Positions 29,346 through 59,141 are shown, numbered from the stretch's first letter. The stretch: DNA of 64,000 nucleotides from Octopus sinensis (GCF_006345805.1 NC_043015.1:33294001-33358000); one strand, 5' to 3'. A program made the numbers and translations. Notes: generated from the sequence alone by a model not told the origin.

Positions 29346-29374
29346 CGGGTAGTAAACACTATGTTTGCTAACAT
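29346..29374 (-). CDS. dlg1: Candidate alternative first coding exon of dlg1: MLANIVFTT(R)
   Basis: ATG TTA GCA AAC ATA GTG TTT ACT ACC CG|gtgact, phase 2, with an upstream in-frame TAG. Gives TTREPR. The donor is suboptimal (+5 C). Confidence 0.3.
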
Positions 29375-30398
29375 AAGTGCAGCGTGGCAGAGCTAAATAA
29401 TGAAGTTGGGGTAGGAAGTGAGAGTAATTTAGTAGAAAGGTCATTTCTGCAGACGGAGAAATGGTAGTAAACAGTAAGTGCTGCTGGCACACGGGTGAGG
29501 AAATCCCCATCGTGGTTAACATAGTGAGAGAGAGAGAGAGAGACGAACGGAACTGGAACACTTGACTAACAACAACAAAGGAAATGTGTGGGAGGAAGGG
29601 ATAGTCTCGAATATATAACATTCCACCATGTTGTATAACATTTCAACTATGGTGATAATGGAGGATGAAGATGATGGTGTTGCTAACAATGGCAGAAACG
29701 ATGGTGATGGTGGTGATTGCAATGATGACAGTAGTGATGGTGATAGCGGCAGAGATGACAACTTTAACTTTTTCAAACCACGTTTCAGACATTACCAGAG
29801 AAACAGTGCTAACAAATGTTTTAATTTATTTGTACCCTACATTTTTGTTCCAAATATCTCCATGGTTGATGTTTTCTCTGGTTAAATACCAATAACATTC
29901 TTCAGCCACTTGCATTGACAACACCCATTCCTCACTGAAAAACTAACAAGCAAACAAACATTGCCCTTCATTCTGCAAGTAAAAGTAACCAAGTATAATG
30001 AGGGGAACTTTCTAGGTGCAATCCCATGGTCATTCATAACCAAAGGGGGTCTTTTACCTTTACCCCTACCAAGAAGTATGGAACAAGACCATTGATATTT
30101 AAAGAAAATCATGGATTACTCGAGAGTTTCCTCACAGGATTCCTATTCACAGAACCTAGGAGTTCACCCTGAAGCGAGAGTGGGACATATTAATCTGACT
30201 GACTGAGGAAAGTAAAGCTGAAGAGGCCAATCATGGATGCAACACAACACCACTTCAAAGTTTGATTCAACTCACAGATATTTTGAGATGTAACATTAAA
30301 AATATGAGACTGATGCACTACAAAGGCATTTAAAAGTCATGTAACTGTTTTACTTTTGTATAAGTTGGATATTTTTGAAAATCTGGATATTCCTCCTT

Positions 30399-30435
<37 letters not shown>

Positions 30436-30440
30436 TAATC

Positions 30441-30640
30441 CAAACAAGAAAGCACAAAAAACACAACAACGCGAGGACGTGGAACAAATATAGTATTATT
30501 GGACGCTCAGGAAAGAAGGAGGGTTTAACATTTCGAGCGGAGCTCTTCGTTGGAAACTTAGGAGAAGGAAAGATCCAGAGAAGGGAAGACAGAGGGAAAA
30601 AAAAAAATCGCCAACGGTACACACGCTGTCACATTTTGAA
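30441..30640 (-). mobile_element. Short interspersed repeat within (TA)n carrying a degenerate minimal hammerhead motif
   Basis: Minus strand 30553-30526: CCAACGA-A-GAGC-UCC-GCUC-GAAAUGUUA. Flanked by TA microsatellites. Confidence 0.5.
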
Positions 30641-30642
30641 TA

Positions 30643-30686
<44 letters not shown>

Positions 30687-30687
<1 letters not shown>

Positions 30688-31487
30688 GTGGTCTGATCAA
30701 TAAGCATCTGGACTATTGCCATAGTAACGAAGCTAAAGCATGCAGAGTGAAGCTGCTTAGCACACTAAGTCTTAACATTCTGGCTCACTTCTACTGTTTA
30801 CAGCAGTGCTTGGAAGAAACGTGTGTAGCATGTGATTGTCACATTGATCATGAGAAAGTTGAGCAGAGAATCTGCATCAAATATTGCCAAAAGCTTGGCG
30901 ATACCTATTCAGAGGCCTACACAAAGTTTTCATTGTTCTCGATACAATCAAAGAGATTTTGTGTGTTTTTGGTCAACTGAAAGTAGTTTTAGTACAAACT
31001 TGGCAGACATGCGTCTCATACCCAAATCTTCAGTGATAATGGAATGAACTGAACTGAACTAATCTGCACATCTAATAACTCAGAGATGGTGATTTCACGA
31101 TTTCCCCTCACAACTGCACACACATCTGGCTGCAAGTCTCCCAGAACGTACACCACTATCAACATTTTTGTGGCCATCTTGGAAACGTCTAAACCACTTG
31201 TACACTTGCGTGCAGCTCATACACTCCTCTCCATACACTTCCTGCAACTTTGTGTAGGCCTCTGAGCAGGTATCGCCATGACAACTTTCTCAGTCATGGT
31301 CAATGCGACGATCGCATGCTACACACCTTCCTTCCAAGCACTGCTGTAAACAGAAGAGAGTAAAACTTTAAAACTTAGTGTGCATGCACAGCAGAATTCA
31401 TGGTCAATCTGTGCCAAGTGGCTTCACTCTGCGTGCATTAGCTTCGTTACTATGGCAACAGTCTGGATACTTATTGATCAGACCTCG
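30687..31487. mobile_element. Non-autonomous mariner made of two inverted 5' ends
   Basis: TA|cgtggtctgatcaataag...cttattgatcagacctcg|TA. The plus arm encodes EKVEQRICIKYCQKLGDTYSEAYTK; the minus arm encodes GDTCSEAYTKLQEVYGEECMSCTQVYKWFRRFQDG (mariner N-terminal HTH). Confidence 0.9.
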
Positions 31488-31633
31488 TACGCGTAAATTT
31501 AATTAGAGGTTGTGTTAACCTCCTGAAGGGATGGTTGCATCCAAGGAAATACTGGTTCAATCCCCAGTATTGTTGGGGAATGAAACTCCCTTAAAACAAT
31601 AGGTATATATTATACATATAGTTTGTATCCAAT

Positions 31634-32007
31634 TAAAAGAAGAAAATGGAGATTAGGAGGTTAATTATTTATTATTAACAACTTAGTAATCTTTGCTTCT
31701 TACAACCGTTTCAATTAATACTCAATAATTTAATTACAAATTTGTATGCTAAATTTGCATTTATGTGACATGAGCATAATTTCATCAGAGAAAAAAAAAT
31801 GTACCTATCAATTCATTTCACATTTAACATCCGAAGGTACATTTTCTTTTTCCTTTGCTGAAATTATGCTCATGTAACATAAATGCAAATTTGATGTACA
31901 AATTTGTAATTAAATTACTGAGTATTAATTGAAACAGCTGTAAGAAGCGAAGATGACCAATTTGTTAATAGTAAATAATTGTTAACTCCCTTATCTCCAT
32001 TTTCTTT

Positions 32008-32010
<3 letters not shown>
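31634..32010. repeat. Long imperfect inverted repeat (foldback), ~170 bp arms and ~28 nt spacer
   Basis: aagaaaatggagat...catgagcataatttca...aaatgtacct (to 31806) mirrors aggtacattt (from 31835)...tgaaattatgctcatg...atctccattttctt. Confidence 0.9.
31697..31792 (-). ncRNA. Type I hammerhead ribozyme motif (Penelope-type)
   Basis: Minus strand: UUCU-CUGAUGA-AAUUAUGCUCA...UGAGUAUUAAUU-GAAA-C GGUU G-UA-AGAA. Stem I UUCU/AGAA, extended stem II, very short stem III, GUA cleavage triplet at 31703-31701. Confidence 0.55.
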
Positions 32011-32051
<41 letters not shown>

Positions 32052-35000
32052 CCTGTTGTCTTTTGAGTTGATGCTCATTGTGAGAGTGTGGTTATCCAGG
32101 GAAGCTGAAATGTTGTAGTAGATAGTGTGTGTTGCAGTTACACAGGCTACACTAGACTATGTGAGTACTTGTGTACCCATACAGACTATCAGTTCGGCAT
32201 CTCGACCATCCAACTACAAATGATTTGATAGACATAATAATGTATAGGAATCGTGGAAAGTTAGAGATGATATAATTAAGTACTTGTGTACTTATGCAGA
32301 CCACTGATTCACCATCTTAACCATTCAACCATGAAGAATTTGATAGAGAGGATGCACAGGAATGATGGAATATTGTGGATGACATAGCACTGATCCTTTC
32401 AGACCCATATTTCTAATGGGATATATTGTCTGTGTGTTTTAATTCAATTAAAATAATTAAGATGTGGAGGTGGAGGTATTTGATAAAATAACCAGCTTTT
32501 TGAATTTGGTGTCTGGAATAACAAAAGATATATATTTAGAATATTAAAAATATGGTTAGGGACAAAGATGGCGTTTAGGACGTAAGAGACTAATATGTAA
32601 ATTGGTATATTTAGAAGCTGGTTGGAACATAGCTAAAACCAAATATATATATTGGTATATTAAGATGGTAATTGGGATGGAACAAAGAATAACTGTATGA
32701 TGGTATATTAAGATGAAGTTTATCAATACGTACACCTTGGTATATCTTAATAGTATAAGGAACATAACAGAATGAGTCTTAGACAAAATTGTGATAGAAA
32801 GTTTTAAGACAGAGTGTAAATTGAGAGATCTGAATGCTAAAATATGAGATAAGTTTGTGTAGAAAGGGTTAAAGATATAAAACCAATCTGTGATATTGAT
32901 ACAAGCAAACGTGAGATTCCTTTATTGGCAACTTTCTTTGGACTCAGGAATAAAACTAAGAATATGAAAATACAACAAAATAACCAAATACGCATTGTCC
33001 ATACTTTATAATAGCAACAACAACTACCATCACAATAGGAACTGAAATCTTTTCTATTCCACAAAGTTGGACTTTGTTTATTTTTGTTGCTATTCCTCCA
33101 CATTCTAACCACAATATCAACAAGTTAGGACTCTGAAATGATTGGATGGGATCTGACCAGAGAAACTGATTAAAAAAAAAAAAAAAATGAATGCAGCCAC
33201 GCCACCATCACCATCACCACACTCTCCCATCATCATCAGCAGCGGTGGTCGGTCGATAAGCTGTCTATAGCCAACTAACTAGCAACACTTTAACGACCCA
33301 TTAATGTCATACGCCACAGATTTCTATTGCTATGGAAATCAACAATATATTTTTAAAAATCAAAAAAAAAATAAATAAAGCAAAAGAAAGACCAATTCTT
33401 TTGAGATTTTAGACATCAATTGAACAGATTCCAAGAAGCTATTTACACTTAATGAAAAACCCAAGGAATTATAAGTTTACGTGTGTGTGTGTGTGTGTGT
33501 GTGACATAGATAAATCAATTCTCAGATGTTTGTTGTTAAACAAGTGAATATATAGTGTGCATTTTAATCAACTCAATCACTCAATAGTTTCCTAGCAGGA
33601 TCTGTTAGTCTAAGACGATGGTTTTTGTTGCTGGTTGTCAATAAAATAAAGAAATGATGACTTGGATATATACTGTCATAATAGAACAACAACATGGACA
33701 AAAGAATTTTTATATATATATATATATATAGACATACATGTGCATGCTATGTTTATATAATGTAGAGTGTGTGTATATATATACAACCACTACATCCAAA
33801 TGCACATAAGGGATGGTTTTTATGCACTACATTTATATGGAACTCAGTAGTCACCAAAATTATTTTGTCATGGAACCCTTAATTCCAATTTTTTTAAAAA
33901 TCACAGAACCCAAACCTAGTACACAATAGTATATACTGACATTGTAGTGCATACCTACCTTCCTTTTGTGTCATGCTAAAGGAAGTTTCTTATCTTCTGT
34001 CTAAATGTCCTCAGCCTCAGCAAAATATGTACTCAGCCCCAGAAAAAGTGGGCAGGGTGGGGGAGATGACGACAGGAAAAGCATCCAGCTATAGAAAATC
34101 TGCTTCAACAAATTCTATCTGATCCATGCCAGCATGGAAAAGTGGACATTAAAATGATGATGACACACACACACACATACAGTGTGCACTTGGTGGGGGG
34201 CACAAGTGTATGATTATGCATCTGCTTTGATTCATCTGCACTTTTTCTCCCACCTTTCACTGTTACTACTTCTACCAACATTTGTCACAACTCCCCCTCT
34301 CACTCCACCCCCTCTCCATCTTGCCTGCCATTTGCTGTCATCTCCATCATCACAACTGTAGCTCTCAGCTTTCACTAATGAAACCTGTAGAATTTCCATA
34401 AATTTGCTAGTAACTTATTTTGATAATGGTGAAAAAAACATTATTTTTTTAATAAAATAAATCATTATTGCATTTTATCAAACACTTCTTATCTTGCAGA
34501 ATCCCAGAATGTTTTAATGGAAGCTACTTAAAGAAACGCTGATATACACATCGTGTATATAAAGTGGGTTAGCAGGAAGTTCCTTCTTATCCCACCATAC
34601 ACTTGGCACATTTCCAAATCAATTGTTATTCTTCAAGTTAATGTTCTTTTCTTTTTATGGCCTAAACTTCCTCAACTTGCTTTCATTCTGGGATACTTAT
34701 TCATGTCAAACTGACAATGCAGGCTCAAAGAAGCCTCATTTACCAAATATTTTTCACAAAAAATTCTTATTTTCTTTCTTCATTTATTGGTTTGGTTTGA
34801 AGGAAGGGATTGTGACTAGAGTCTATCGAGCAGCCTTCAACTTGCAAATGTTCCTTGGGAATATTTGCAAGTTAAAGGCTGCAGAAAAAAATGTGCAAGA
34901 AGAGAATTCCAGAATACCAGACTGTGTAAAAAGGAAACTGAACAAGTAAGATCTGGCACCTACCTGACTATATAGGTATAAGAGGACAGAAAGGGCTAAT

Positions 35001-37318
35001 TTAGTAAATCAACAAATTCAACAGAGACATACTTCACAACTACATGAGTTTTATAAGAAAATAAAATAAAAAAGACCTTATACTGGCCTTATATGGTATT
35101 TTTACTGAGAGATCTTAAGACAAGCAACAATAAGGCAGAAAAGTTAAATTGATAGTTTATTATAACAGTTGGATTAAGGTGATTATTACTTAACCCTAGG
35201 CCTATCTAAGACTACATTATCCAATTTACGTTTCCTTTTTTCAAGATGGCAAGGTGTGATTTGAGGAAGATATAGTTTCTACATTTAGCAAATGTAGAGG
35301 ATCAGAAGTGTGAGATGCTCAAGTGTTGCAATACCAATCCATTTAAAATGACTAAAAACTAATTATCTCAATATTTTGCACTTAAAAACTTGATCTGTAA
35401 ATTAAACACCTTTAACATATTTTTGAAACAATAATTCATAATTGATAAAACATACTGGCATTCCTACAGCATAGAGTCAGAACATAATTTCTTTGGGGCT
35501 GTACCTTTTAAGCGTAAAAAAACGATTTTCAGGGAACAGTCAAAGCTGGAAAGTTATGAGGTGAGATGGCCCCACACCTAATTCCCCCCTCTGCCTCATA
35601 AGCCCTGATGCCTAAAACATACAGATCTGAAGAAATTAGGATTCTTTTTTTTTTTCGGTGGTAAACAATTCCCAACTCTATTCTATAAGAATGCCAAAAT
35701 ATTCAATCCTTTTCTTACTTTATTTCTATTGAAATAAACTGTTTTAGTTAATTTTGGAAATAACGATGAATTTAGTCGAATAACTGTCATTATTAAGCTG
35801 GTGTTTGGAACACAAATTAACGCGAAATTTTGATGGACAGTTTTAATTTAGATCACTTTAAGAGAAAGTTTGTATTGTAATATCAGGAGTGACTTCAGGC
35901 AGGTTTGTATCAAAAGAGTTAGTGTGTGAAATATGTAAAAACATCAGAATAAAGTAAAAACCATTATGAGAGGAGACAACATTGGCTTACATCTACTGAT
36001 ATCAATACACAAGTAAAAACTCCTTGGGGGTGCCTTAATAGCCTTATATTTGATCAAATGGTCTTTCACACTCTATAGTCACTGACCATCAGGTGTACAT
36101 ACATTCTTCATTCATTTCCAATGTTTAAACTGCTGTAAAATAACCTTTCTCAATAACATTGATAACTCATTTAATGGTACTCCAAAATTTAACATTGCAT
36201 ACTCAACAAAATATTACACCAAACTAGTTCTTCAACTCTTATATACACTCACAATATTCACAGCTTGTGTTACTCACTACCAGACAGTACCCACAGATCA
36301 TGCTCTTCAAATGACCAAAATTGAGATGCAATTCACTACGTCATGCTAGGAATCTCATCCCACCATTAGGCTGGTTTGATCAACTTCATCTTGTGTCTAT
36401 CACTAACATCAATTTAATTGAACAGTCTTCACTCTCTATTAGGGTGCAGAATTCTCCAAAATATAACAAATGTAATGGTCTAGAGTTTGGTAGAAAAACA
36501 GCAGTCAACAGAGCTTACCCCACATTGAGAAACAATAAAGATGGTAGAGATGTGACCACCGATTTCTTATTTTGGTCTTGTGCTCACACCAGTTGTGTTT
36601 GAGGCCTCGCGATAAGCCTGATAGACATACCAAGGAGACAATCTTGAAATTCTTTCTTGGTAGCACAGGGTAAGGTTTCACAGATGCTGTGAAGCTTCTG
36701 GCAGGTACCTTTTAGGTGTGTCTCTTTGTGTGCCACGTGGAACTCCTCTCATTGCCATACACTACTTGTTCCCTAAAAATGTTCTCCTATACTCTACCTC
36801 CAGCAGAAAGAGAAAAAACAGTTTCTTAGCAACAAAGGTAACAAATCTTTTACAATTCTAACCATTGAAACATTTCTGTTATTTACACACAGAGTTCATT
36901 ATTTTTCCACTAGAAGAAATGCAGAGAGTGAGAAACTGAGTAGTAATGGATGAGACATCAGCTTTGGACAAAGAAACTAATAGATGTACTAAGTATCTTT
37001 TTTTTTTATACTTGTACATTCATTATACTCATACACAAGGTGATGGTATTCCATCTTTTCCAACCATTCCTTCCCTGAACCAATGAGAAAGTCTCCTCTA
37101 TGTAGCTAATCAGCTAGAAACTTAAGCCAAACCTCACTCAAAGTTATATCTTTAACAGAAGGTAGAGTACACCGGGATAATGCAGTCCTAGTTATGCTGG
37201 TACCTTTGAAAAGGTAAATGAGATTGTTGTGGCTGAAGCAATTTTCATCATAGGCTAACTGGATTAGAGTTAAAATTATTAATCTCTTCTCACCACTAGG
37301 ATATAATTTCATAATTTT

Positions 37319-37477
37319 TACACTCATGGAGTGGTTGGCGTTAGGAAGGGCATCCAGCTGTAGAAACACTGCCAGATCAGACTAGAGCCTGGTGCAGCCC
37401 CCTGGCTTCCCAGACCCTGGTCGAACCATCCAACCTGTGCTAGCACGGAAAACAGACATTAAACGATGATGATGATG
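37319..37477 (+). mobile_element. SINE 3' part ending in (GAT)n
   Basis: gagtggttggcgttaggaagggcatccagctgtagaaac...gacattaaacgatgatgatg. An inverse copy lies at 47231-47452; other copies at ~4390-4650 and ~13110-13305. Confidence 0.8.
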
Positions 37478-40456
37478 TTTCAGACCATTCCACTGATGGT
37501 TACCAGCAAATTAAGATCCAAGTAAAGCAACAGCAATCATTCACCTGTAAAAGTTAGGAAATGCTTTCACTGCAGAAACTGCCATGCCCTTGCTAACATC
37601 ATAAAAAGTAACGACACTGCAGGATGGTAATTCAGCTGAATGTCAAATGTATTGCATGTTTATTCACATAGTTTTGAATTAACACATTATCTTGTAGTTT
37701 CAAGATTTCAATGGTATGTTTGTATGTTCTTAGAATGATATTGTAGGGTAGGAGGGAGGGGTTTGGATCTGGTTAGTTTTAATGTAAAACAGTATTTGGG
37801 CGAGATATGGCTAGATTAAATGCAAAAAGGGTTATACTGCCTAAGAACTCCAAGTCAGTTTTGCATGTGATTGATAGTGACCTGGAGGTGAAACAGTGAT
37901 TGTCAATTAGATAACTTGAAGCAAACATAATGACAGCGTGTGAATTTATTTGTAAACAACCAAGAAAGACACAAAAGAAACTCAAGAAACTTAGTTGAAG
38001 ACACATTATAAACGGTAATCACATTAGAAAAAAAAGTATACCGTATGACCTTTGCACCGAAAGTTTGAATAAAATTTAAAATACATTATACACAACACCG
38101 GAATGAATAAAGCCCACGGAATGTGTTGATGTGAATTTCACACGTGTTGATGCCGAAGACATGAACATGTTTAAGAACTGGTTGAAATCCACTGCAACAG
38201 TTCAAAATGGGAAGATGTGAAAAGTTGAACAATTAAATCATGGGTCACTGCTGTCATAAATCAGTTAGATGCCTAACTTGTGATAAAATTAGTCCAAATT
38301 ATCTTCCCGTGTGGCCAAACTGACCGTTGCTATGAATCAACAAATAGCAGAAATTATTTTCAATTCACTAAGAGTGTGACTTCACAACAGACATTACTGT
38401 TAGACAAGAGACCAGCTTAAGAAGTGGGACACGTGGCCCACAAACCTTGACCCTAAGCCATGAATGTGTAACAGAAATATCAGTACAGAGAGAAACTGGA
38501 CCTTAAGGTGTAGCTTGAACTTTCAGGTGAGAGAAGTAATAAGAGGGCAAGACAAGGAGTATAGGACACCTGCAAGCAGCTGGTACTGTGGCAATGAAAT
38601 TGAGAAATGAGGTAGAAATATTATCTTATGCGGAACCTTCCAAAAAAGGTGTCAAAAGAACACAAGTTGGTGGAAGGATGCTGTGGGGAAAGAGGATCCA
38701 TCTACTCTGAACAAACATGAGAAAATGAATGGAAAATGATTATGATTAGCTGGAGAGGAGCACATTTTCTATACAACATAAGTAACAGAAAGGTTACTTT
38801 GGACCAACTACTCAATGTTAAAAGCATGACCCCCTTCAGCCATGAATGACCATGGGATTGCACCTAGAAAGTTCCCTTCCAAGGCACAAGTCGAAGTAAG
38901 ATTGTTTATGGAAGACGAGCAGTCACCCATGCATGCCAGCCTCTCCTCTCTCCATGTCACCGATGTTATCCAAGGGAAAGGCAAGAGCCATTACAGCTTG
39001 GCATCAGTGACATTGAAACTCATTTCTACAGATGATTCAACTGGAGCGACGTGAAATAAAGTGTTTTGCTCAATAACACAACACACAGCCTGGTCCAGGA
39101 ATCAAACTCACTACCTCATGATTGTGAGCCCAACATTCTAACCACTGAGCGATGTGAAATTGGGAGCTCCATAATTAAGAGAGAAATATTCCAAGTTAGG
39201 ATGAGCCCTGGGTCATTAAAGGTGTGTGTGCCTTGTTTCAAAGGAAGGGTCCAGTGTTTATGGCACTATGGAATGTGCTAAATTTGAAACGAAATCAAAT
39301 CTCAAGAAACAGTAAGACACCTAGGGTTGAACTATATAGTTCTAACTTGGTTTTATTTCTTTTACATTGCTAGTGTCATTGACAAAGGCTCATTTTCATC
39401 AACCCTAAATGTTATTCTGCGTCATTATAATAAGAAACATTAAACATTTCTATTTTCCATTCGTATATCAGAAGGAAGACAAAAGCTCCAGCCTGAAAAT
39501 GTGAAGCTGGAGCTTCCTAAGCACTGAATGCGATAAAAATTGAATTCCTTATAAATACACACACAAACACTTCACACAGATTGATTTCAACTGATAAGAA
39601 ATTTTAGCAAAGACAAACATCTTCGTATTCTAAGTAGCAATGATAAGTGGATAAATGTCAAATAAATCATGAACACTATAAAGAAAAAGCTGATGTGACT
39701 CAAGGCAAGAAGACAGTGATGGCAACACCATCTATGATAGAGCATCCACTGTAACAAAAACATCTGCTGTCATGGTAAAAGCAACAGAACCTGCTGTAAC
39801 CGTGCAACAGGGAAAGCAGTCACTTTCACTGCAATATAAAGGCCAAAGTCTCGACTGTGATGCCAAAGGAAGGCAACAACATCTACAGTGACACAGAATA
39901 ACATAGAGAAGCCAGTAGAATTCAAAGTTACTGGTTCTCAAACAAACTTTATAGTTGGCAACTAGAAAGTGGGCAAACAAAAAGATATATATTTATTGAT
40001 TCACAGCATACAAATGTTGTGTCAGCGGGAAATTCCAATAGAGCTGTGAATACAATGCGAATGGCCAACCAAAACTAAGATCCAACTGTCTACTGGAGTA
40101 ATAACTGAACCCAAAGAATTAATTACATGGGATATTATAGGGATTTAAATGTGAAAAAAAAAAACAATTTTTCTATGATTTACATTAAAAAGAAACCCCT
40201 CCACCAAATTGTATATAATTGAGCATACATCACTGGCTTCAGCTTAACAGCTGAAGTATGCTAAATGTGTTCATTTGTTTATGTCCTCTTTTATATACTG
40301 GTATGGGTTGAGCAAGTTTTCTGAAGCATTTGTTATTCCTAGCCCCTTACAACATACAGGTAACAAAAGGATTCAATAGAGAAGTAGTTTCTGTCAGACA
40401 AACAACTGCCAGCAAAACTTCAAAGCCACAACCACCTCGTATTTCTGTCTCATCTA

Positions 40457-40527
<71 letters not shown>

Positions 40528-40556
40528 GTAGGCAAATACACTTGTATGTGTCTTAC

Positions 40557-40588
40557 CTTCCATATATATGACAAAGATGACAGAGCAT
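40557..40588 (-). CDS. dlg1: Candidate alternative first coding exon of dlg1: MLCHLCHIYG(R)
   Basis: TAA ATG CTC TGT CAT CTT TGT CAT ATA TAT GGA AG|gtaaga: strong donor, phase 2, in frame with the PDZ3 exon. Kozak context is weak. Confidence 0.35.
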
Positions 40589-41388: not shown

Positions 41389-41580
41389 TTATGTGTAGGG
41401 AGACCATAGTGGGCTGCAGTATTCAAGGTGAAACCTGGCAAATGTGGAAAAGAGGAAGATGATACCAGGATCTCGAGGCTGGAAGGTTCTAAGGATCCAG
41501 GAGCACATTCTGTAGGCCATGTCAACTTTATTGTTCATACGTACACTCCAGCTTAGATTGTGACACAGTAACAACTCAGT
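41389..41580 (-). mobile_element. CR1/L2-group LINE fragment
   Basis: WILRTF...FSTFARFHLEYCSPLWSP resembles the LVRPHLEY..WSP motif downstream of the RT domain. Confidence 0.75.
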
Positions 41581-41636
41581 CTCTATTTTTTGATGCTATG
41601 AGAAGCTCTGACGAGGGAAGAGAGTATAGCTGTTTA

Positions 41637-41690
<54 letters not shown>

Positions 41691-41762
41691 TATATAGATA
41701 GAGAGAGAGAGTGGTATGTATATGTATATCTAAACATACACATACCCCTCTCTTTCTCTCTT

Positions 41763-41794
<32 letters not shown>

Positions 41795-47040: not shown

Positions 47041-48169
47041 CATCTACCAGAAAGCAATGTTATTTACCAATCTGTCTTTTATCTAAGAATATCGGATCCA
47101 AAACTATATTTTGTTGAAATATGTCAAGTTGACTTGCAGAGAATATCATTTCTATTTTTTTGGTAGAGATTTAACATCAGTTCTGGAATAACCATTAAAT
47201 CTCATTTTAAAGTTAAAGGGTCAAGGAGATTCATCATCATCATCATTATTTAGCATCCGCTTTCCATGCTAGCATGGGTCGGACGGTTCAACTGGGGTCT
47301 GGGAAGCCAGAAGGCTGCACCAGGCCCAGTCTGATCTGGCAATGTTTCTACGGCTGGATGCCCTTCCTAACGCCAACCACTCCGTGAATGTAGTGGGTGC
47401 TTTTTACATGCCCCCAGCACAGGTGCCAGACGAGGCTGGCAAACAGCCACGGTCTGAGATCCAACAAGTAGCAACTGTGAGGGCTTTAGATGAATGATTT
47501 TCATGATTAAGGTGTTGTGTGATGCAACGATATTTCCTTATTTGAGTAGTGCTTTCTTGTTGAAAGACACAAAATTAGCAGATTTTCACTGGAGGACTAT
47601 TTTAAGATCTGTCCTTCAGGAGAGTCAGCAGAAGTTTCCTGTAGAAAGGGAGGAATTAAAAAGTTCAGAGGGACAAGCTTTATGATACAATATTTGAGGG
47701 TTGTGAGGACCAGGACCTAACTCTATGGTACAATGTTTGAAAGTATTGCAAGAGACTGTCAGAGCCACTGGCCTTGCTTGTTGTAATGTCAGCTAAGAAT
47801 TAGCTTTAGCAATATATTGTAAGGAATTTGGCTACCTGAGACAAGAAGATAAAACATACCATTGACAAAGGAAGTTCTAATGTTCAAGATGCACACCACC
47901 CCACCCAAGTTAGCCCTGTGTATAAACACCAATGCTAATAATTTTCTACATCGAAACAAAGCAATTGTTCATATGGAAGAAAATTTCTATAAAACAAAGA
48001 AATGTTAAAGAGAGAGACCGGAACTGAGATTTGGATGATAATGGATTTGCAGAAAAAAATCATGCATTCTGAAAGAGTCTGCAACAAATCCTGTGAGAAT
48101 CAGAACATGAGTCTGTAAACATGATAAACATTTCCGAAAGGGGTACAAGAATGCAAATTTTGCGAGGAA

Positions 48170-49422
48170 GAAATAGGCAATGAAATTGATCCCAGGACTT
48201 ATTTTATTAACCACAAAAGCATGAAATGCATAGCTGGCCCCAGAAAGATTTGAACTCAACAAGTTAAAGAAAACAACTAAATACTAATAGCAAATCTTTG
48301 TAAAAGGCCAGTAACTTCAGGGGATGGGGTGGGGTCAGTAAAATTGGTCACAGTGCTCAACTGGTATTTATTTTATTGACCCCAAAATGATGAAAGATAA
48401 AGTTGATCTTGATGGAATTTGAACTCAGAACATAAAGACAAATAAAATGCCACTAAGTATTTTGCCTGGCATGATGGTGATTCTGTCAGCTCCACTGCTT
48501 TAAAAAAGCCACCAGATATCACTAGGTGTTTTATGTGATGCTCCACCGATTCTCATTCACCACCACAATAACAATCCTTTCTGCTATAAGCACAAGACCT
48601 GAAATTTCATACGGGAGCAGGGTTAGTGGATTACATCAATCCTAGTCCTCAACTGGTTGTACTTATTTTATCAATTCAGAAAGGATAAAAGGCAAAGCTG
48701 ACCTTGGCAGAGTTTAAACAAAGAATGTACAGCTGAAAGAAATGCTGCTACGTCCAGTGTGTGAATAGTTCTACCATCTTGTGGCCTTCATAATGATAAT
48801 AATGGTTTTACATTTTGGCACAAGGCCAGCAATTTTATGGGAAGGTGGTTAGTCCATCAACCCTGGCGATCAATGGGTACTTAATGCCGCCTTTCCAGGT
48901 CAATAAAGCAAATATTATTTGAGCACTGGGGTTGATGTAATATACTAAACCCTTCCCACAAAAACTGCTGGCCTTGTGCTAAAAATTGAAATAATAATAA
49001 TAATCCTTTCTACTGGAAGCACCAGACCTCAAATTTGGGGCAAGGGATTAAGTTGATTACATTGACCCCAGTGTGTAACTGGTGCTAATTTTAATGATCC
49101 TGAAAGGATGAAAGGCAAAGTCAATCTTGGTGGAATTTGAACTCAGAATGTAGCAGCAGATGAAATACCATTAAGCATTTCGCCTGGCATGCTAATGGTT
49201 TCAAATTTTGCCACTAGGGTAGCATTTTTCAAGAGCAAGGGGCTAGGTTGATTACATTGACCTCAGTGCTCAACTGGTACTTATTTTATTGAGCCTCACC
49301 ACATACACAAAAGGATGAGAAACAAAGCTGATCCCAACAGAATTTGAACTCAAAATAAAGTAGGATGAAATGCCACAAAGCATTTTGCCTGGTGCAGGAA
49401 TGATTCTGCCAGCTCGATGCCT
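48170..49422. mobile_element. Dense SINE cluster (about 6 copies, mostly minus strand)
   Basis: Repeated aactggtacttattttat...ggatgaaaggcaaag...gaatttgaactcagaa cores separated by short (TAA)n. Confidence 0.85.
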
Positions 49423-49429
49423 TAATCAT

Positions 49430-51350
49430 AATGGTGAAGGATGAGGGAGACACTTAGAAAGACAGACATAAAACGTGGGGGTTTACATATAATAAAATGA
49501 TTTAAAAAAAAAAGTATACATGGTATAGAATAAACTAAAGGGACATATACATAGAATACAACAGTAAAAGAAAAAAAAAAGGATGGTGCTGATGGGATCT
49601 TCCTGATATAGGAGGACTTCTGAGATAATAGAGGAACCCCACTGCCCAAGACCTCTCTGAACACCAAAGACAAGCACCCTTTCTAGTTCTTTTTCTGATT
49701 CACAGGTCTACACTTAGAGCGGTACCATCTGCTCTTGCCATTTTCACAACTTTCACCCACCGTTCAATGAATTCATTCAAGGACAGCACTTCTCTATCTA
49801 CTCTCACTTTCCTTTGAAAGTAAAACTTGAACACTCATTCAACCAAAGAGGAATGTCTTTGCTCTCATGCCTTCCAGCCTTGCCCACCAGAAGAGCTCTT
49901 TTGTCACTGCCACCAGGCAAAGGAAATCTGATTTACCTGTCCAATTAAAGGAGGCTAGCAGAGCAACCATCACTATGGACTCAGCTGATAGATGGATCTG
50001 CCCCACACACGACAGTAGGTGTTCAACATAACTCCAAAAGGGCAGAATGGTTTCATCAGCCTGCACACACCTAGTAGAACAAGCCCGTCTGACAGCACAT
50101 CCATACCTGTAGAGTTTATCTCAAACCAGAAGGCCATGAACATCTGGAAATTATCTATGGTCGTCCCCGACCAGAAAGTGCCCTTGAACAAACTAGCCAG
50201 ATCTCCCTGAGGACATTGGAACACTTCCTCATGACTAATCCTCTATATATTGCTAGAGTGGAACATTCACCAATCTCACTGCCTGACAACATTCTAAGTG
50301 CCAGCGCCCAGTCTCAGTCTGTCCTTCACTAAGGACAGCACTTCTATAAAAGAGAGGATCTGCAGAAAGATGGGCCTCACAAATAGAGCTCACACATGTT
50401 CACTGTCCAGAAATTGTTCCAGGCAGCAGACTGACTGCCTCACCATTGGAATGTGTGCCTTCCACCAGAAGAGAAGAGATGGCTCTAATCTGATCAAGCA
50501 GTAACTGGGGCAAAGCATGATGATGAGGCAATAAATGATGATGGAGACAATGGAGGTATTTTCCACCTTTGTCCAACCTTTCAGAGACAGCCTTCTCTCT
50601 GCCCATTTCTGGGTAAGACAGGCCACTCTGTTCATCACCTCATCCCAGTTCTTATCCACTTGGAGATTGGGACCAAACCAGACACTCTCTGACAGCATTG
50701 ACCTGCCTCTCCAGGTACCCAGTGGCCAGCCCATTGACTTCTTGGGGTTGATTTTGACCCCTACAACTAACACATGTTTCTTTAGAATGCATCCTACACC
50801 ATGATAGTGATGTCATCCACCCATGCTGACACTGCCCTCCTTTGTCCTCCCAGTTTGAAAGGGATGCTCCTTAACAGTTCCGACTTCTGCAGGCAGCAGT
50901 GGCTCAAGAGCCAGCACACACAGAAGAGGTGACGGTGGGCAGCCCTGATAGACCATGAAATATGTCTATTAGGTAGCAGTTTATTTTGACTGCCAATTTG
51001 GTGTTGCTGTGCATTGCAGCGACCCAGTTTGAGGACAGCTTCCATGATCAACCCTATTGAATGCTTTGGACTGATCCACATTGACCAAGACCCCACCAAA
51101 GCCAGCTTTAGTCCCAGCCCTCTCTAAGATGGTGGTGGTCGTCATGGATAGACCTGTTGAGAATTGCACACGTTTGTGCTTCCCTGACCATACTACTGAT
51201 GATAAGCGCCACCTTTTCATGAACACCTTGGCCTAAATCTGTGTTTAGCAGAGTTATGGACTGAAAATTCCCTAGAAAATCTCCATTGTTGGCATACTTC
51301 CCCAACAGTATTACCCCACCCCGGCTAACAGCACTAGCAATTCTCCCATT
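49430..51350 (-). mobile_element. 5'-truncated, degenerate L1/Tx1-clade LINE (RT domain to 3' end)
   Basis: Fragments in order: FQSITLLNTD, QTCAILNRSIHD, VDQSKAFNRVDH, SAWVDDIT (YADD equivalent), WFGPNLQVDKNW, WAERRLSLKG. Many frameshifts. Confidence 0.9.
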
Positions 51351-51359
51351 GTCATCATA

Positions 51360-51870
51360 ATAATAATGATTTCAAACTTTGTCAAAAGGGCAACAATTTT
51401 GGGGGAGGGGAGGAGTCTATTACATCGGCCCCAGTGTTCAACTGGTACTATAATAGTAACAATGGTTTCAAATTTTGGCAAAAGACCACCAATTTCATTG
51501 GGAGGGATAAACTGATAACATTGCTCCCCCCCCCCCCTGTACTCAACTGGTATTTATTTTATCGACCTAGAAAGGATGAAAAGCAAAGTTGACTTCAGCA
51601 GAATTTGAACTTAGAAGAAGAAACACTGCTAAGTATTTCTTCCAGTTTGCAAACTTGATATTAATAGTAATAATAATAATAATAATTTCAAACATAGGCA
51701 TAAGGAAAGAAGAAGAAGAAGTCAATTATGGCAACCTGAGTATTTGAGTGGTGGAGGGAAGTAAAGCAGAGTTGAGTTCTGCAGGATTTGAATCCAAAAT
51801 ATAAAGGGCAAAACCATATATTGCAAGGTAGTCTGTCCAATGATCTAACAATTCTGCCAATCCACTAGCC
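51360..51870 (-). mobile_element. SINE cluster
   Basis: Same SINE core; continues the 48170-49422 cluster on the other side of the LINE. Confidence 0.75.
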
Positions 51871-52011
51871 TAATAATAATAATAATAATAATAATAATTA
51901 ATTGCTTCTAATTTTAGGCACAATAAATAGTAATAAAAAACTATAATAACAATAAAGTCCACAATAACCATAACCATAAACATATAATAATAATAACAAT
52001 AAACTTAGTAG

Positions 52012-52047
<36 letters not shown>

Positions 52048-52994
52048 TAAAAGACAAAGGGTAAAAAGCAATAAAAGAGTGGTGTGAGGGGAGGGAGGGA
52101 GGTTGGAACCTTGCTTTTAAGCCATTATGTAAATCAGTATTGTGGTTGTTGTTAATGTGAAGAACTCACAGACGGGCAACACCATGACAACAGACCCAGG
52201 GAGAAGGAGGCTGGCAGATGGATGCGGAGATCAGTGTACAATAGTGATAGACAGTGGTGGTGGTGGTGGTGGAGGAGATGGGAGTGGTGAGAGGCAGGGC
52301 AGCGTGAAGTCATCCATCATATCTCAACAAAATAACCAATAGAGGATCGATAGATGCTATATTGGTAAGTGAGAAGGGAGGAGGGGGAGCTTGCGTGTGT
52401 GTGTGAGAGTAATGTTGGACGTGTGTGTGTGTGTGTGTGTGTGTGTCACTATAAGAAAAACCAAATGTGTGCATTAGAGAGAGAGAGAGATGTTGCATAT
52501 GTATCTTTGCAAGAACAAGTGTGAATGTGTGTGTGTGTGATACTGCATATGTATGTCTGCCAGAATGAGAGTGCGAGAGATTAGATTATTCCAGTCAAAA
52601 TATATATGCAAGAATCTATTTCAATGTGTGTGATATTTTACATATACGATGAGTGTGTGTGTGTGTGTGCACATGTGAGCATGCACAGATCGATTTCAGT
52701 TTTGATTCAATAAGAAATATCTCCTTTAAAACTTCGACTTACTTGCAAGAAACTAACAAAATGAAAAACAAAAGAAAAAAACCATTTCTCTACATCATTC
52801 ATTATCAACACATTATTCCTGATTCAATATCACACATACAAATGCATGCATACAATGTATGTATACATACACACACACACATCCAGCAATGGAGACTTAT
52901 TTCTTTGTTAGGAACCAGGTCCTTCATATAAAGTTGGTTTTTATTAAAGAAACAAAGCACCACCAAATACTGCTACTACTACTACTACTAATTT

Positions 52995-53570
52995 TTCAAC
53001 TATAGGCAATTTTAGGTCAGGGGGAGAAGTCGATTACATCAACCCCAGTATTTCACTGGTACTTTATTGATCCTGAAAGGATGAAAGGCAAAGTGGACCT
53101 CGGCAGAATAATAATAATCTTTTCTACTAAAGGGAGAAGGGCTGAAATTTGAGGAGAGAAGTAACAAGTTAATTACACTGACCCCACTGTTTCACTGGTA
53201 CTTAATTTATCAACCCCAAAAGGATGAAAGGCAAAGCTGACCTTGGTGGAATTTGAACTCCGAATGTAAAGATGAGTGAAATACCACTAAACATTTTGCC
53301 TGGCATGCTAATGATTCTGCTAGCTTGCTGCCTTCAGTAATAATAATAATAATCCTTTCTACAAAAGGCACAAGGCCTGAAATTTTGGGGGAGCGGACTA
53401 GTTGAGTACATAGCTCCCAGTATTACACTGGTACTTAATTTATCAACCCAGAAAGGATGAAAGGCAAAGTCAACCTTGACAGAATTTGAACTCAGAACGT
53501 AAGGACAGACAAAATGCCACTAAGCATTTTTCCCGGGGTGCTGACGATTCTGCCAGCTTGCCGCCTTATT
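52995..53570 (-). mobile_element. Three tandem SINE copies
   Basis: Cores at ~53030-53108, ~53170-53335 and ~53400-53567, separated by (TAA)n. Confidence 0.85.
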
Positions 53571-56403
53571 AATAATAACTGCTCTTTCCATCAGTTGGAT
53601 GAGGTTAATATTTATTGCAAGAGAACCTAATAAAGACATAATAGGCTAAATAATGAGATAAATATACAACACCTGATGCCAAGTTGACAAAATGAAATAG
53701 CTAATTCAGGAGGGACTAATTAGCAAAAACAATAGTTTGATAAACATACAAATCAGGTGTTCTATCATCAGCAAGTTAATATTAACTTATTTAAAATATA
53801 ATGCATTAAAATAAGTAACTAGTAGTGTAAGTATGTACTGAGGAGAAAAGATATTATTGATCAATGGCTAATAACGTTTCTTGCATACAACCAGTAAATG
53901 AGATGACTCCAGACATGTTTCAATATTATACTGACATCATCATCTTTCACTAAACTTATGAGAGATTACTACCTTTTAATGTTTAATAAATGTGCAGTGG
54001 TTGACATGATTTTTAGAGAATAAATAACTTACACACATCATGAATGTTGTAAGGTTTTGTAGCGAGAGCATGTTGCATGGTGGCATAACGTAGCAGTGGT
54101 GATAAATTGTGCTGCAATTAGACATACGTTGTAGCTTGGAAGAGGAGATATGATGTGGGCAGAGTCAGGTGGTGAGGACTTGCAGTGTGGTGGTTAAAAT
54201 GTTTGGCAATATAGGGTGGGAGTGAGCCCTTAATGTGCAGAGGTAAGGACATGTGCTGTTATGTGGTAGTGAAGGCCTTATCATATATTCATTCGTATGT
54301 ACATTACTGCCATAGAGTTGGGGGGTGAGGAGGGTAGTAAATGAGCAAAGAAAGGGAAAACAAAGAAATGTGAAAGTAGAACAGATGTTTAATGAGTGAA
54401 AGTAGGAGCTTAAGTTATTGTGATGCAAACAAAAGACAGGTTTGTCCATAAAGAGATAGCAGATAATGCCAGAAAACTTTTCTATCAGCTTATCGAGAAA
54501 GGGTAGAACTACAGACACTGGCAAAGAAGATTGACTGGAATTGTGCAAGAAAGACAGAAACAAGAAGAATGCTCTTTCTGTAAGTTAGATAAAATATGAT
54601 GTTTAAAATGTTGCAGCGATAACTTATTACACAACAACCACCTAAATGTTATCATATAAAAACATAGTGGAATGTTTGGTTGTTACTTTGGTAGAAGGAA
54701 TAAACTTTAGTGAAACAGACAATGGAATTCAGCCTAGGATCACAGGAACATGAGTTCAATTCTTATTCACAGATTTTCACTTCAATTTCAGTGCAGGTAT
54801 TTCATTCTGCTACACTTCATTCTATGTCTTTGTTTACGAAGCTATGAAAAATAGGTAACAGACCCTTTAGAAAGGAAACGCAAAATAGACTGCTGTCATA
54901 TTCAAAGTGAGATTTCTCTCTCACACATCCAGTTGGTCCTCAAAAACCTCTTGAAAATTAACACAAACTCTGCACCATTCCCAGAATATAGAGTGGATAA
55001 GAAATATGAAAGCTTACAGGAAATTGTCCTGAATACATATATTAGTGTCTAGATAAAATAATGATTGTAAGTTTCTGTCAACAAAGATTGTAAAGGTGTT
55101 GTTAATGGTCAGAAAACTAACACATGAAGTGAAATCATAGCAAACCTTAAACGTTGCTTGAAAAATAATATTTTGAGAAAGAAGAATAAGGTTAAAACAG
55201 GGTGTTGTGGAACTTGAGACAGAAAAACTAGGTCGATATTGAAAGGAGTAGAATTAGTTATGTTCTACTTTTAATCAGAAAGCATGAGAGATGTTGAGGC
55301 TAGAAAACACAGCTAAAACTGAATTATTTCACTAACTTCATATGACATATTCAGAAACAGACATCAGCATTTAAACAAGTTGAATTCACTGTGAACCCAT
55401 CAAAGAACAAGCGGTGGATGGACATGCTACAAGAAGCAGTGTAGGTGGACTCAACTCCTCTCTACATCCAGGGCCAATACCTTCCAAGTTAATGTAGTAC
55501 TGGATGCTACAAACAATAGCAATCTAAATACCATAACCCCTGTTCCCCACACACAATCATACAGCTCAATATAGACTCAGTAGAGAATCCATAAGTATTT
55601 CCTACTTCGTTGAATCTCAATAGAACAGAGTTACTTTAGGAATGGCTAGAATGAAAGTTATTTCCTTGTTGAGACCTTGTGCAGAACATGTCACTAACAA
55701 GTCTTGTACTAATATAAACAGTGCCACTCCCTTCATACAACACCGATCTACAGCAACAGTGTGTCACAAAGAACAACTTTGGATATTATTATACAAGTTC
55801 ACATGGTGTGCAAGATTATCCATGAATACTTCTTAATTGATGCTATATGTTACGTGTATTATCTACGAATTCCACATCTTAACTGAGGATATGCTATATA
55901 CAATATCACATTTTAACTGTTTTACTACAAAAATCAGATATACTCCCAAAATTTCATCATCCTTGACTGTAGATAGCAGTTTTATATACCATTCTATCCT
56001 TTGTTAAGGAATGTCATGTTTCTAACTATTTTTTGTCAAGTTTATTGAGGCAACGTGACTTGCAGAAAATATCATTTCTATTTCTTTTTTTTTTTGGTAG
56101 ATTCTTAACATCCTTATAGCCATGAAATTTAATTTTGTAGTTAAATGATTAAGTGAAGTAATGTTATATACAATATCTCTAAGTCTATGTTATATATATA
56201 TATGTTACATATAATATTTATGAGGTGTTGTTATATAAAAAATATCTATGAATATTCCACCTTAACAACTGATGCTACATTATATAGATCACATATGAGG
56301 TTATGTTGTATATACAGTATCTATAAGACTGCATTATATACAGTATCTGTATAGTTATATCATATATATATATATATATATATGTTTTCTTGTTTGGATT
56401 AAC

Positions 56404-56435
<32 letters not shown>

Positions 56436-57359
56436 TACAGTATCTAAGAGGTTATCTTATACACAGTATGTATGAGGCTATGCTAATACAATAAACTGCT
56501 GTTTATCTCTATGATTACAGTTACTGACATGTCAGAAACATTACTTCAAGAGATACTAATTGCTAAACAATGATTCCAATAAAGCAGAGACGGGGGGGGG
56601 GATATACTCGTTACTTGACTAGCTAAAAATAGTAACAAAATTGCCCTCAAATTATACCTTACATTCTAAAAATGCAAGGACTACATTATCTTGGATACAT
56701 TAATTTGATAAACCAAACTTATCAAACCCTCACAAGAATGAACCTGACAAAAAGATGAGGACAACAAATGATGGAAAATTTTAAAGAAATCAAGTTCGTT
56801 GTTACACGAGAGGAGGAAGCTGGCTTGATGTTTTGTATATTTTTTAACTCTCGGGGTAAGATTTTGGTTCTTTTTACTAGTGCTGTCAGAATATTGCTAT
56901 TGTGGTTTAGTGAACATATTCTTGCCATGATGTAAGCAGCAGCAGAATAACTGATATTTGGAACAATCACAAATAGAAAGTTAAATCCATTATCAATAAA
57001 CAATAGATGTGTAATTGGTAGATTCAGTGCTTACAACAACACAACCTAACAAAAAAGGAAAAAAGGAAAAAAAAGACAGTAAAGGGGAGATAATAAATAT
57101 TTAAAGCTCAACTGGCTTTGTGCTCTATTATCACCCTTGGGGCACCACAGCGAAATACCAGGAGTAGCAGAAGCAGGAAATCATTAGATCCATTGTATGG
57201 ACTTGAGGAAAGCTAAGTACAACTTGGAATGGTAGCGAAATCAGTTCAGACAGGTTAGCTAAATAAATAAATATATTGTAACATTTTTTTTTTCTATTCC
57301 TCAGTTAATCTGTCTCAAAATGATGCCTACTGTCAGCATCTGTGGCATCAGTGTTGCAA

Positions 57360-57570
57360 CAGACATGAGGTATTAGTTATGTCTTGTAAAGTTACCTGAA
57401 ACATTAGTTGTGTCTCTTACAAAAGACATGTAATATTAGTCATATAGGTATGTAGCATTTGTCATATCTTACAGGGGCCATGTAGCATTATCAATGTCTC
57501 GCAAGGACATGTAGCATTAATTATGTATTGCGAGGGATTTATAGTATTAGTCACGTTTTGCAAGGACACA
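57360..57570. repeat. Minisatellite, ~39 bp degenerate unit (gacatgtagcattagttatgtcttgcaa core)
   Basis: Repeated atgtagcatt..t.atgt.tt.caa motifs. Confidence 0.65.
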
Positions 57571-57734
57571 CGAATAAACAAGTGTTACTGGACATAGTTC
57601 AGGTACCACAACCCAGTAGCTCTTCCCTTATCTCTTCCAATATCATATGAAATGCTTAACATTTGCAACAACAATATGCCTCAAACCATGCTTGGTTCAG
57701 TGACCAACATCCCCTAGCCTGAAGTTAGAGTGCC

Positions 57735-57946
57735 ATCTGAGACCACCTTTGGTTCCAAGTTACTAATACCCTTGAGACAATCTTTAGTCCTAAGTTACCA
57801 ACTTACCTAAAACCACTGTTGGTTCTAAGTTACCAAATAAGGACCACTTCTGGTCTAAAATTACCAACTTACCTGAGACTACCTCTGTTTCTTAGTTACT
57901 AATTCATCTGAGACCACCTCTGGTCTTCAATTACCATCTCACCTAA
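57735..57946. repeat. Minisatellite, ~33 bp unit (ctgagaccacctctggttctaagttaccaacttac)
   Basis: About six diverged copies are visible. Confidence 0.75.
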
Positions 57947-59127
57947 AATTCCCCATATTCCTGTGCAGTTTCAAGTGAGATGGTATATTTAGATCCAAAT
58001 GTCAACTTACGTTACAGAATTATGGAAGAATCTTGTTTCTTTTAAAATTGTATTCCAAACACCATTTTATTTTATCAATAAATAAGAAAATATCCGTTAT
58101 TTAACCAAACCATTTCAATGATTAACTGAAACTGCAAGAGAATGTTATCACTGTATTGTGATGACGATTCTACATATATCGACAGACAAAAGGGAATTAA
58201 AGAATTGTAAGATATTTGTAAAACAATGACAGGGAGTTAAATAACGGCTTTATATTTGTTAAGAAACAAAATAAATCAATAAAACCAAAAACCAAATAAT
58301 AAGAAAAAATGTCAACAAAATGTAGACCAGAGGAGTTGAAATGGTTAAAACTGCTCAATTAGAACTCCACTAATGAGCAGGTAAAGGCAGTAATTCTTTA
58401 AATAGACAATCTTCACTTTATCTTGTCCATCTAAAGAAATATCTGAGTTGTTTTGTCCAGCTGATTAAGTGCTGCCTCACATATAGGTCAGTGAAGGTTT
58501 TCTTTATCAAGAGAAATATTTCTTCAAAGAATGTCACTGCCCAACACTTGTTTAAATGTCAATTATTTTCACTTTTGTTTCTGCTTTCATTTACCATTAT
58601 TTGTTTTTATTTCTTCTTCTCCTTTTTTTGTAACAAACTTATGCCAATGTTACCATTTTCCACATTTTGGAATCCAACCAACTTTAACTATAAGCAAATG
58701 ATATTTGAAATAATACACATTAAATTAAAATTGTCTTAGACATACAATGAAAATATCAAGACATTTTACTGTAACTACTTTTAGAGAAAATGCAGGGAAA
58801 AGAGAGATAGACAAAAAGACAGAGAGGAAGACTAGAAAAGAGGGAGGGTTGGAGGGTGAGTGGCAGCAGGCAGGAATGTGTGTGTGTGTGTGTGTTTGTG
58901 TTCACATGCAACAGTCTGTTCATGGTATATTCATAAAATATATTGACATTTATTATTAACAACACAAGAACATTTGAAGAGATCCATGACCAGAAACTTA
59001 ATTACTGGAATCAATAGATTTTCCTTTTTCTTCTTTTATTACTTATTTTTTGGCATTTTGTACAAATTAAAAAAAGACAAAAAAAAGTCTATTTATTAGG
59101 AAGCAGACTATTACGGAATGCTGTTAC

Positions 59128-59141
59128 CTGTGCCTAAGCAT
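59128..59141 (-). CDS. dlg1: Candidate alternative first coding exon of dlg1: MLRH(R)
   Basis: ATG CTT AGG CAC AG|gtaaca, phase 2, with an upstream in-frame TAA. Lies downstream of a stretch (59150-60500) without recognisable transposons. Confidence 0.35.

What the first reader, a model, noticed from the sequence alone, without database searches (positions are those of the whole stretch)
29346..59141. Array of tiny alternative first exons that could give PDZ3-SH3-GK DLG isoforms interchangeable N-termini
Seen: four separate minus-strand units (59141-59128 MLRH, 43875-43847 MTLPMKAVT, 40588-40557 MLCHLCHIYG, 29374-29346 MLANIVFTT). All have the same layout: upstream in-frame stop, ATG, 4-10 codons, then a phase-2 GT donor ending in AG or CG. 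Each therefore completes the Arg of 'REPR' on the PDZ3 exon. Each sits in unique sequence near GA/CA/TA microsatellites. Known: MAGUKs diversify through alternative N-termini, and as I recall vertebrate DLG3 has a short isoform starting just before PDZ3. Inference: promoter choice among several first exons spliced to a shared constant region, producing short scaffolds lacking L27/PDZ1/PDZ2. Caveat: NG is favoured before donors and short ATG-donor pairs arise by chance in 50 kb, so some candidates may be false.
Basis: partly seen in the sequence, partly recalled or inferred. Interest (0 to 1): 0.75.

Follow-up and report, generated by a model that had tools for sequence, protein, structure and literature searches.

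The report
Two ancient short-start exons in Dlg
Inside a huge intron of the octopus discs-large scaffold gene, two small exons (one of the four proposed, plus one just outside the window) are spliced onto the third PDZ exon in transcript assemblies and match limpet and clam gene models, so they likely start half-length versions of this scaffold that molluscs have probably kept since their classes split; the other three proposed exons look like chance.

Summary
The four ATG-to-donor units exist as described, but the layout is no commoner than chance: 21 phase-2 cases in 50 kb against 15-25 in control phases and strand. Only MTLPMKAVT (43875-43847, exon B) is supported. It is joined to acceptor 13928 in 4 of 4 runs laid (2 directly, 2 by resolving a two-contig consensus), heads an O. 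bimaculoides RefSeq model, and matches limpet MTIPMRRVT (rank 1 of 1955 candidates). A second exon A, MYKSV...KKEPYYYDSRIP, lies 5 kb beyond the window. It is joined in 2 of 4 runs, and its motif recurs in limpet, sea slug and bivalve models. MLRH, MLCH and MLAN show no junction (0 of 4 runs) and no homologue. So this is not an array of four: it is two old exons that likely act as internal first exons giving PDZ3-SH3-GK-only Dlg. Start sites, protein and function are untested. Alternative first exons are known in DLG genes; I found no paper on this mollusc pair (10 searches).

The parts
13772..13928 (-). Shared PDZ3 exon of dlg1 (157 nt, enters in phase 2); acceptor at 13928
   Evidence: 100% identical to Octopus Dlg1 RefSeq proteins; the contig holding it stops at 13928 in 4 of 4 runs in each
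13929..64000 (-). In-window half of the 99.5-kb intron before the PDZ3 exon. Exon A (coding part MYKSVRNTKKKEPYYYDSRIP, donor TAG|GTAAGA) lies in the other half, 5 kb beyond the window end: extended coordinates 69083-69019 = G000:C19:33363083-33363019, locus L005
   Evidence: Intron limits. Exon A: 22/22 match to an O. bimaculoides RefSeq N-terminus; junction in X12 and X18 by consensus resolution, 30/30; CpG 99-100th percentile
43847..43875 (-). Exon B coding part MTLPMKAVT, donor GAG|GTAGGT; likely a first exon
   Evidence: Junction to 13928 in X7 and X9 directly, X12 and X18 by consensus resolution; RefSeq XP_014780563.1; limpet match
43876..44026 (-). Likely 5' UTR of exon B (at least; contigs end at a CT/TA repeat, so the start site is not defined)
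   Evidence: Contig lengths mapped assuming colinearity (only the first 30 letters were seen); in-frame stop 10 codons upstream, one out-of-frame upstream ATG, no acceptor-like site
43500..46000 (.). CpG-rich stretch over and upstream of exon B, promoter-like (inferred)
   Evidence: 9-16 CG per 500 b; 1-kb windows at the 90th and 98th percentile of the intron
59128..59141 (-). MLRH unit: probably chance
   Evidence: No loose end at the expected place 13931 in 4 runs; no homologue
40557..40588 (-). MLCHLCHIYG unit: strong donor but unsupported; probably chance
   Evidence: Not among the AG branches in 4 runs; CpG 0-14th percentile; rough donor score 10.3
29346..29374 (-). MLANIVFTT unit: weak donor, probably chance
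   Evidence: No loose end at 13929 in 4 runs; rough donor score 2.3

Best explanation
Two exons inside the 99.5-kb intron before the PDZ3 exon of octopus dlg1 (B in the window, A 5 kb beyond it) are spliced to that exon and likely serve as first exons of internal promoters, which would give 470-500-residue Dlg proteins made only of PDZ3, SH3 and GK. Shown: the junctions, their phase, in-frame upstream stops, the domain content of the matching models, and peptide conservation in other mollusc classes. Inferred: that each exon is the 5' end of its transcript (CpG-rich surroundings; the long-form contig does not branch at the upstream linker exon), and that the proteins are made. Likely working: a stand-alone PSG supramodule that keeps PDZ3, SH3-HOOK and GK partners but cannot bind L27 or PDZ1-2 partners such as receptor tails, so promoter choice would shift a junction between receptor-anchoring full-length Dlg and a receptor-free scaffold or competitor (about 50%). 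The conserved N-peptides likely set targeting or partner binding as short linear motifs (about 50%). MLRH, MLCH and MLAN are likely chance.
For:: the only 5' neighbours of acceptor 13928 in runs X7, X12, X18, X9 (organisms A, A, D, C; four studies) are the long-form linker exon (4 of 4), exon B (4 of 4) and exon A (2 of 4); the X7/X9 loose end maps uniquely to 43849; the X12/X18 mixed consensus is explained 30/30 by B plus A, next best position in the intron 24/30. Long-form contigs are 812-1521 nt, far longer than the linker exon of about 125 nt, so the linker does not detectably splice to A or B. O. bimaculoides models begin with A (6) or B (2). B-like start in Patella caerulea (2 models); A-like motif in Patella (2), Dreissena, Potamilus, Plakobranchus and 2 unnamed Logan proteins. 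B ranks 1 of 1955 against the limpet peptide (score 39; plus-strand control maximum 13); A ranks 1 against 5 of 5 A-type peptides (47-58; control maxima 10-17); one PDZ, SH3, GK and no L27 in 4 of 4 short models. PSG folds confidently. PMC9490041 (passages): PSG is a supramodule with its own ligand specificity, needed for phase separation with SynGAP/ADGRB1, while PDZ1-2 binds NMDA/AMPA receptor tails.
Against: No start-site data: contigs cannot show a start, and they end at repeats; further upstream non-coding exons are possible. Exon A's junction rests on resolving a consensus, not on reading a single contig. Exon B's conservation outside octopus rests on one limpet species. The Patella and Dreissena short models come from annotations that split the gene in two, and I saw no RNA support for them. 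0 of 11 O. sinensis RefSeq isoforms seen and none of the listed RefSeq members for Mercenaria (6), Ruditapes (7), Gigantopelta (12), Haliotis (15 listed of 35), P. vulgata (5) or Liolophura (2) is short. In Plakobranchus the A motif is internal in a predicted long protein. Both UTRs hold upstream ATGs. The fold gives the N-peptide no structure (pLDDT 38 and 65 for residues 1-10 and 11-20). No protein-level or functional evidence.
Confidence: 0.8

Rival explanations
1. All four proposed units are used first exons; MLRH, MLCH and MLAN are rare or tissue-restricted.
For: Correct phase and GT donors; MLCH has a strong donor, one of 2 phase-2 candidates scoring 10 or more in 99.5 kb on a rough matrix; contigs drop rare variants and only 4 of 23 listed runs were laid cleanly at the acceptor.
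Against: Chance rate equals the observed rate; control phases and strand hold 0-1 equally strong cases each; 0 of 4 runs show them; no protein among those fetched starts with them; CpG not elevated like A and B, lowest at MLCH.
Confidence: 0.07
2. A and B are internal cassette exons or mis-annotations of a split gene, not first exons.
For: Short models appear where the annotation split the gene in Patella and Dreissena; the A motif is internal in a Plakobranchus model; an acceptor-like site lies 73 nt before A's ATG.
Against: In-frame stops lie just upstream of both ATGs; long-form contigs do not branch at the linker donor; the start Met and length of B are the same in limpet; junctions are seen in transcript contigs independent of annotation.
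Confidence: 0.07
3. The short transcripts are real but the N-peptides have no role of their own; they only supply a start codon and the residues that pad PDZ3.
For: The peptide is unstructured in the model; the end of exon A aligns with the residues before PDZ3 in PSD-95, so part of the conservation may be structural padding.
Against: The [KR]EPY[YF]YD block is kept in three mollusc classes while residues before it vary freely; B keeps 6 of 9 residues and its length between octopus and limpet.
Confidence: 0.3

Closest known systems
Vertebrate DLG2/PSD-93 with several promoters and coding first exons (PMC5518101, passages read)
   Same: One DLG gene, several intronic promoters, each with a short coding first exon spliced to shared exons; some were missing from reference annotation.
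   Different: The passages read do not place those exons before PDZ3 (recalled: they lie before PDZ1); the mollusc exons remove L27, PDZ1 and PDZ2 and share no clear sequence with vertebrate proteins fetched.
Drosophila dlg1 (PMC10261928, passages read)
   Same: Single invertebrate Dlg gene with 21 annotated isoforms from alternative promoters, some giving non-overlapping proteins.
   Different: The passages describe L27-containing and L27-only forms; I saw no statement on a PDZ3-first form and did not see Figure S1, which may show one.
Human DLG3/SAP102 short transcript NM_020730 (structure recalled, not verified)
   Same: Recalled as starting from an alternative first exon just before PDZ3, which would be the same architecture. 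One search shows only that this accession is a second DLG3 transcript; one search lists DLG3 among genes with strong start-site switching in mouse cerebellum.
   Different: No sequence comparison was possible; a SAP102 review (PMC10620527, passages) lists only I1/I2 splice variants. Shared ancestry versus convergence is untested.
PSG supramodule of PSD-95 (PMC9490041, passages) and single-PDZ MAGUKs such as MPP5/PALS1 (PDB 4wsi, 7m4r)
   Same: PDZ-SH3-GK as one working unit.
   Different: The PSD-95 PSG studied there is a laboratory fragment, and MPP proteins are separate genes; here the unit would be a natural product of the Dlg gene.

Membership tests
DLG-subfamily MAGUK gene (dlg1) | [quoted passage not shown] | tested here: met
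   Exons of P0005 map in order over G000:C19:33230410-33727158, minus strand; Pfam domains
Alternative coding first exon (A and B) | Spliced to the shared downstream exon | tested here: met
   B 4 of 4 runs, A 2 of 4
Alternative coding first exon (A and B) | Not joined to upstream coding exons; own start codon after in-frame stops | tested here: met
   Unbranched long-form contigs of 812-1521 nt; stops. Holds at contig sensitivity only
Alternative coding first exon (A and B) | Own transcription start and promoter | tested here: inconclusive
   CpG-rich surroundings; contigs cannot show a start
Alternative coding first exon (A and B) | Translated into protein | not testable with these tools
   Only indirect: peptide conservation
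Alternative coding first exon (MLRH, MLCH, MLAN) | Spliced to the shared downstream exon | tested here: inconclusive
   0 of 4 runs, but contigs show presence, not absence
Alternative coding first exon (MLRH, MLCH, MLAN) | Above chance or conserved | tested here: not met
   DNA-level comparison with other cephalopod genomes was not available
Variable-first-exon array (protocadherin/UGT1 type; features recalled) | Tandem paralogous first exons, each coding a large domain, spliced to constant exons | tested here: not met
   Two unrelated exons of 9 and 21 codons, 25 kb apart; B scores -8 to 2 against A-type peptides and A scores 0 against the B-type peptide

The most novel reading that the evidence does not exclude
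Molluscs have carried, since before cephalopods, gastropods and bivalves split, two dedicated promoters that make an abundant PSG-only Dlg with its own conserved N-terminal motifs, largely missing from current reference annotations. This would be a natural receptor-free form of the phase-separating scaffold module, possibly as common as full-length Dlg in octopus tissue, and perhaps ancestral to the short DLG3 form recalled in vertebrates.
Probability: 0.35. Interest if true: 0.68.

Novelty: new variant of a known kind. Interest (0 to 1): 0.45.

Why it matters
If the short proteins are made, half-length Dlg is not an annotation artefact but an old, selected product. Work on synapses and polarity in octopus, squid, Aplysia or bivalves that knocks down or stains Dlg through its 5' half would miss it. 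It would give a natural test of what the PDZ3-SH3-GK supramodule does without PDZ1-2, studied as a laboratory fragment in the paper I read, and two short conserved motifs with unknown partners. It remains one gene's isoform story within a known mode of regulation.

Tried and rejected
(13600-29800 laid with 4 runs) was swamped by high-copy repeats; no 29346-13928 joint was shown but 303 joints were hidden, so it is uninformative for MLAN. One search listed no holder on record as RNA; kinds are guesses, though exact splice junctions argue that the laid contigs come from RNA. Contig depths at the junction (short versus long: X7 143/82, X12 98/36, X18 75/55, X9 56/25) are a weak hint only, as the tool warns that depth cannot rank parts of a gene. 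(B-start search) was dominated by PDZ3 matches and found no further B-type start; no A or B motif outside molluscs among 369 fetched proteins with a PDZ3 signature (best other scores 20 and 16); short forms are often hidden inside clusters, so this is weak. The donor matrix came from 21 automatic calls of which about 5 look mis-called; scores are rough. The Atlas gave no result. Earlier findings: nothing. Paper searches found no report of PDZ3-first Dlg isoforms in molluscs; the library lacks most subscription journals, and Mendoza 2003 was not held. No supplements were read; Figure S1 of PMC10261928 may bear on a fly parallel. Rejected: repeat origin of the three unsupported units (single copy); a protocadherin-like array.

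Full report
Setting. The window lies in genome G000 at C19:33294001-33358000. Its only Dlg coding exon of the known long form is the minus-strand PDZ3 exon, 13928-13772, 100% identical to Octopus Dlg1 proteins. The gene spans about 497 kb, and the intron before this exon is 99.5 kb; the window holds about half of it. I fetched the rest.

Observation. The layout is at chance level: ATG + 2-15 codons + [AC]G|GTR occurs 15, 21 and 21 times in minus phases 0, 1 and 2 and 16, 23 and 25 times on the plus strand. Sequence alone cannot pick real exons here.

Protein records. The latter is absent from the window and matches 22/22 at extended coordinates 69083-69019, phase 2, with a GT donor (exon A). 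None of the 11 O. sinensis RefSeq isoforms seen is short. No fetched protein begins with MLRH, MLCH or MLAN.

Transcript junctions. I laid 5 of the 23 listed runs. One search was swamped by repeats but showed the PDZ3 contig ending at 13928 in 4 of 4 runs. laid 13700-13956 with X7, X12, X18 and X9. Each run has the long-form linker junction. X7 and X9 have one more branch whose 30 loose letters map uniquely to exon B. X12 and X18 have two AG-ending branches; their mixed consensus is reproduced 30/30 by B plus A, against 24/30 for the next best intron position. Expected loose ends for MLAN (13929) and MLRH (13931) are missing and MLCH does not fit the mix (13/30). Contigs drop rare forms, so this shows presence of A and B, not strict absence of the others. 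Long-form contigs are 812-1521 nt and do not break at the linker donor, so A and B are not detectably downstream of the long form's exons (inference from how contigs branch).

Conservation. Patella caerulea models start MTIPMRRVTR (2) or MLHQVKKEPYYYDPRIKR (2); Dreissena, Potamilus and two unnamed Logan proteins start with A-type peptides; a Plakobranchus model carries the motif internally. Against all 1955 phase-2 ATG-GT candidates of the intron, B ranks first for the limpet B peptide (39; next independent 14; plus-strand maximum 13) and A ranks first for 5 of 5 A-type peptides (47-58; plus-strand maxima 10-17). MLRH, MLCH and MLAN rank 41-1095. These outside models are predictions, two of them from split annotations, and the listed RefSeq sets of six other mollusc groups hold no short form. 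Neither motif was seen outside molluscs among 369 proteins, a weak test. The age of the class split (early Cambrian) is recalled.

Promoter hints. CpG counts are at the 99-100th percentile around A and 90-98th around B, against 68-85 (MLRH), 79-84 (MLAN) and 0-14 (MLCH). That promoters are CpG-rich against methylated gene bodies in molluscs is recalled. Start sites are not defined: contigs end at microsatellites.

Product and working. The short models hold one PDZ, SH3 and GK and no L27. AlphaFold on the A form (76 sequences, mean pLDDT 83, pTM 0.61) folds these domains and leaves residues 1-12 disordered and the block 11-20 as coil at mean pLDDT 65; its last residues align with those before PDZ3 in PSD-95. 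In PSD-95 the PSG unit has its own ligand ranking and is required for phase separation with SynGAP and ADGRB1, whereas PDZ1-2 binds receptor tails (PMC9490041, passages). I therefore infer a receptor-free scaffold or competitor made by promoter choice, with N-peptides acting as linear motifs. Neither octopus peptide has cysteine, so N-terminal palmitoylation is unlikely. These steps are inferred, not shown.

Comparison. Multiple promoters with coding first exons are documented for human DLG2 (PMC5518101, passages) and alternative promoters for fly dlg1 (PMC10261928, passages). A PDZ3-first DLG3 transcript is recalled; I could confirm only that NM_020730 is a DLG3 transcript (PMC11731956, passages) and that DLG3 switches start sites in cerebellum (PMC5470264, passages); the passages of PMC10620527 and PMC10796462 do not describe it. 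Ten searches found nothing on mollusc short Dlg forms. No supplements were read.

Verdict. One of four proposed exons is real, a second real one lies outside the window, and both look old. New variant of a known kind; interest 0.45.

Noticed in passing
L019:1119-2302 (G000:C1 near 161420118-161421301): A 1184-b copy, 99.2% identical, of two dlg1 GK exons and the intron between them on another contig: a recent partial duplication or an assembly artefact.
   Followed up: partly
window 40557-40588: The unsupported MLCH unit has two cysteines spaced like the palmitoylated N-termini of some vertebrate DLG isoforms (recalled) and the strongest donor of the four; worth a check in raw reads.
   Followed up: partly
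Proteins P0004, P0121, P0122, P0005, P0135: Octopus Dlg1 records show further alternative N-termini: two before L27 and two before PDZ1, so the gene may have six or more starts.
   Followed up: no
Proteins P0124-P0128, P0306, P0314, P0272-P0282: Short forms also vary by alternative splicing between SH3 and GK in both octopus (470-496 aa) and limpet (464-488 aa).
   Followed up: no
Proteins P0003, P0032, P0167, P0223, P0224: Fish DLG2 models carry a conserved tyrosine-rich insert just before PDZ3, at the same junction; score against exon A is low (11-14), so no homology is claimed.
   Followed up: partly
Proteins P0386, P0373, P0410: Unnamed representative Dlg proteins that start 6-11 residues before PDZ3; P0386 is vertebrate-like. 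They may be short isoforms in other lineages or prediction fragments.
   Followed up: no
Protein P0316: A 239-aa O. bimaculoides model with a distinct N-terminus joined just before the GK domain: possible GK-only form or artefact.
   Followed up: no
window about 14033-14215, 21380-21600, 24330-24580, 26584-27124: High-copy interspersed repeats that attract thousands of contigs in each run; probably SINE-like (label inferred).
   Followed up: no
window 1342-1653, 30829-31047, 50794-51232: Broken reading frames resembling Tc1/mariner transposase (first two) and LINE reverse transcriptase (third); labels rest on recalled motifs.
   Followed up: no
extended coordinates 66000-67000, 69000-72000, 75000-75500 (L005, L006): The CpG-rich stretch at exon A is about 3 kb wide, with smaller peaks on each side; may mark its promoter or further non-coding exons.
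   Followed up: no
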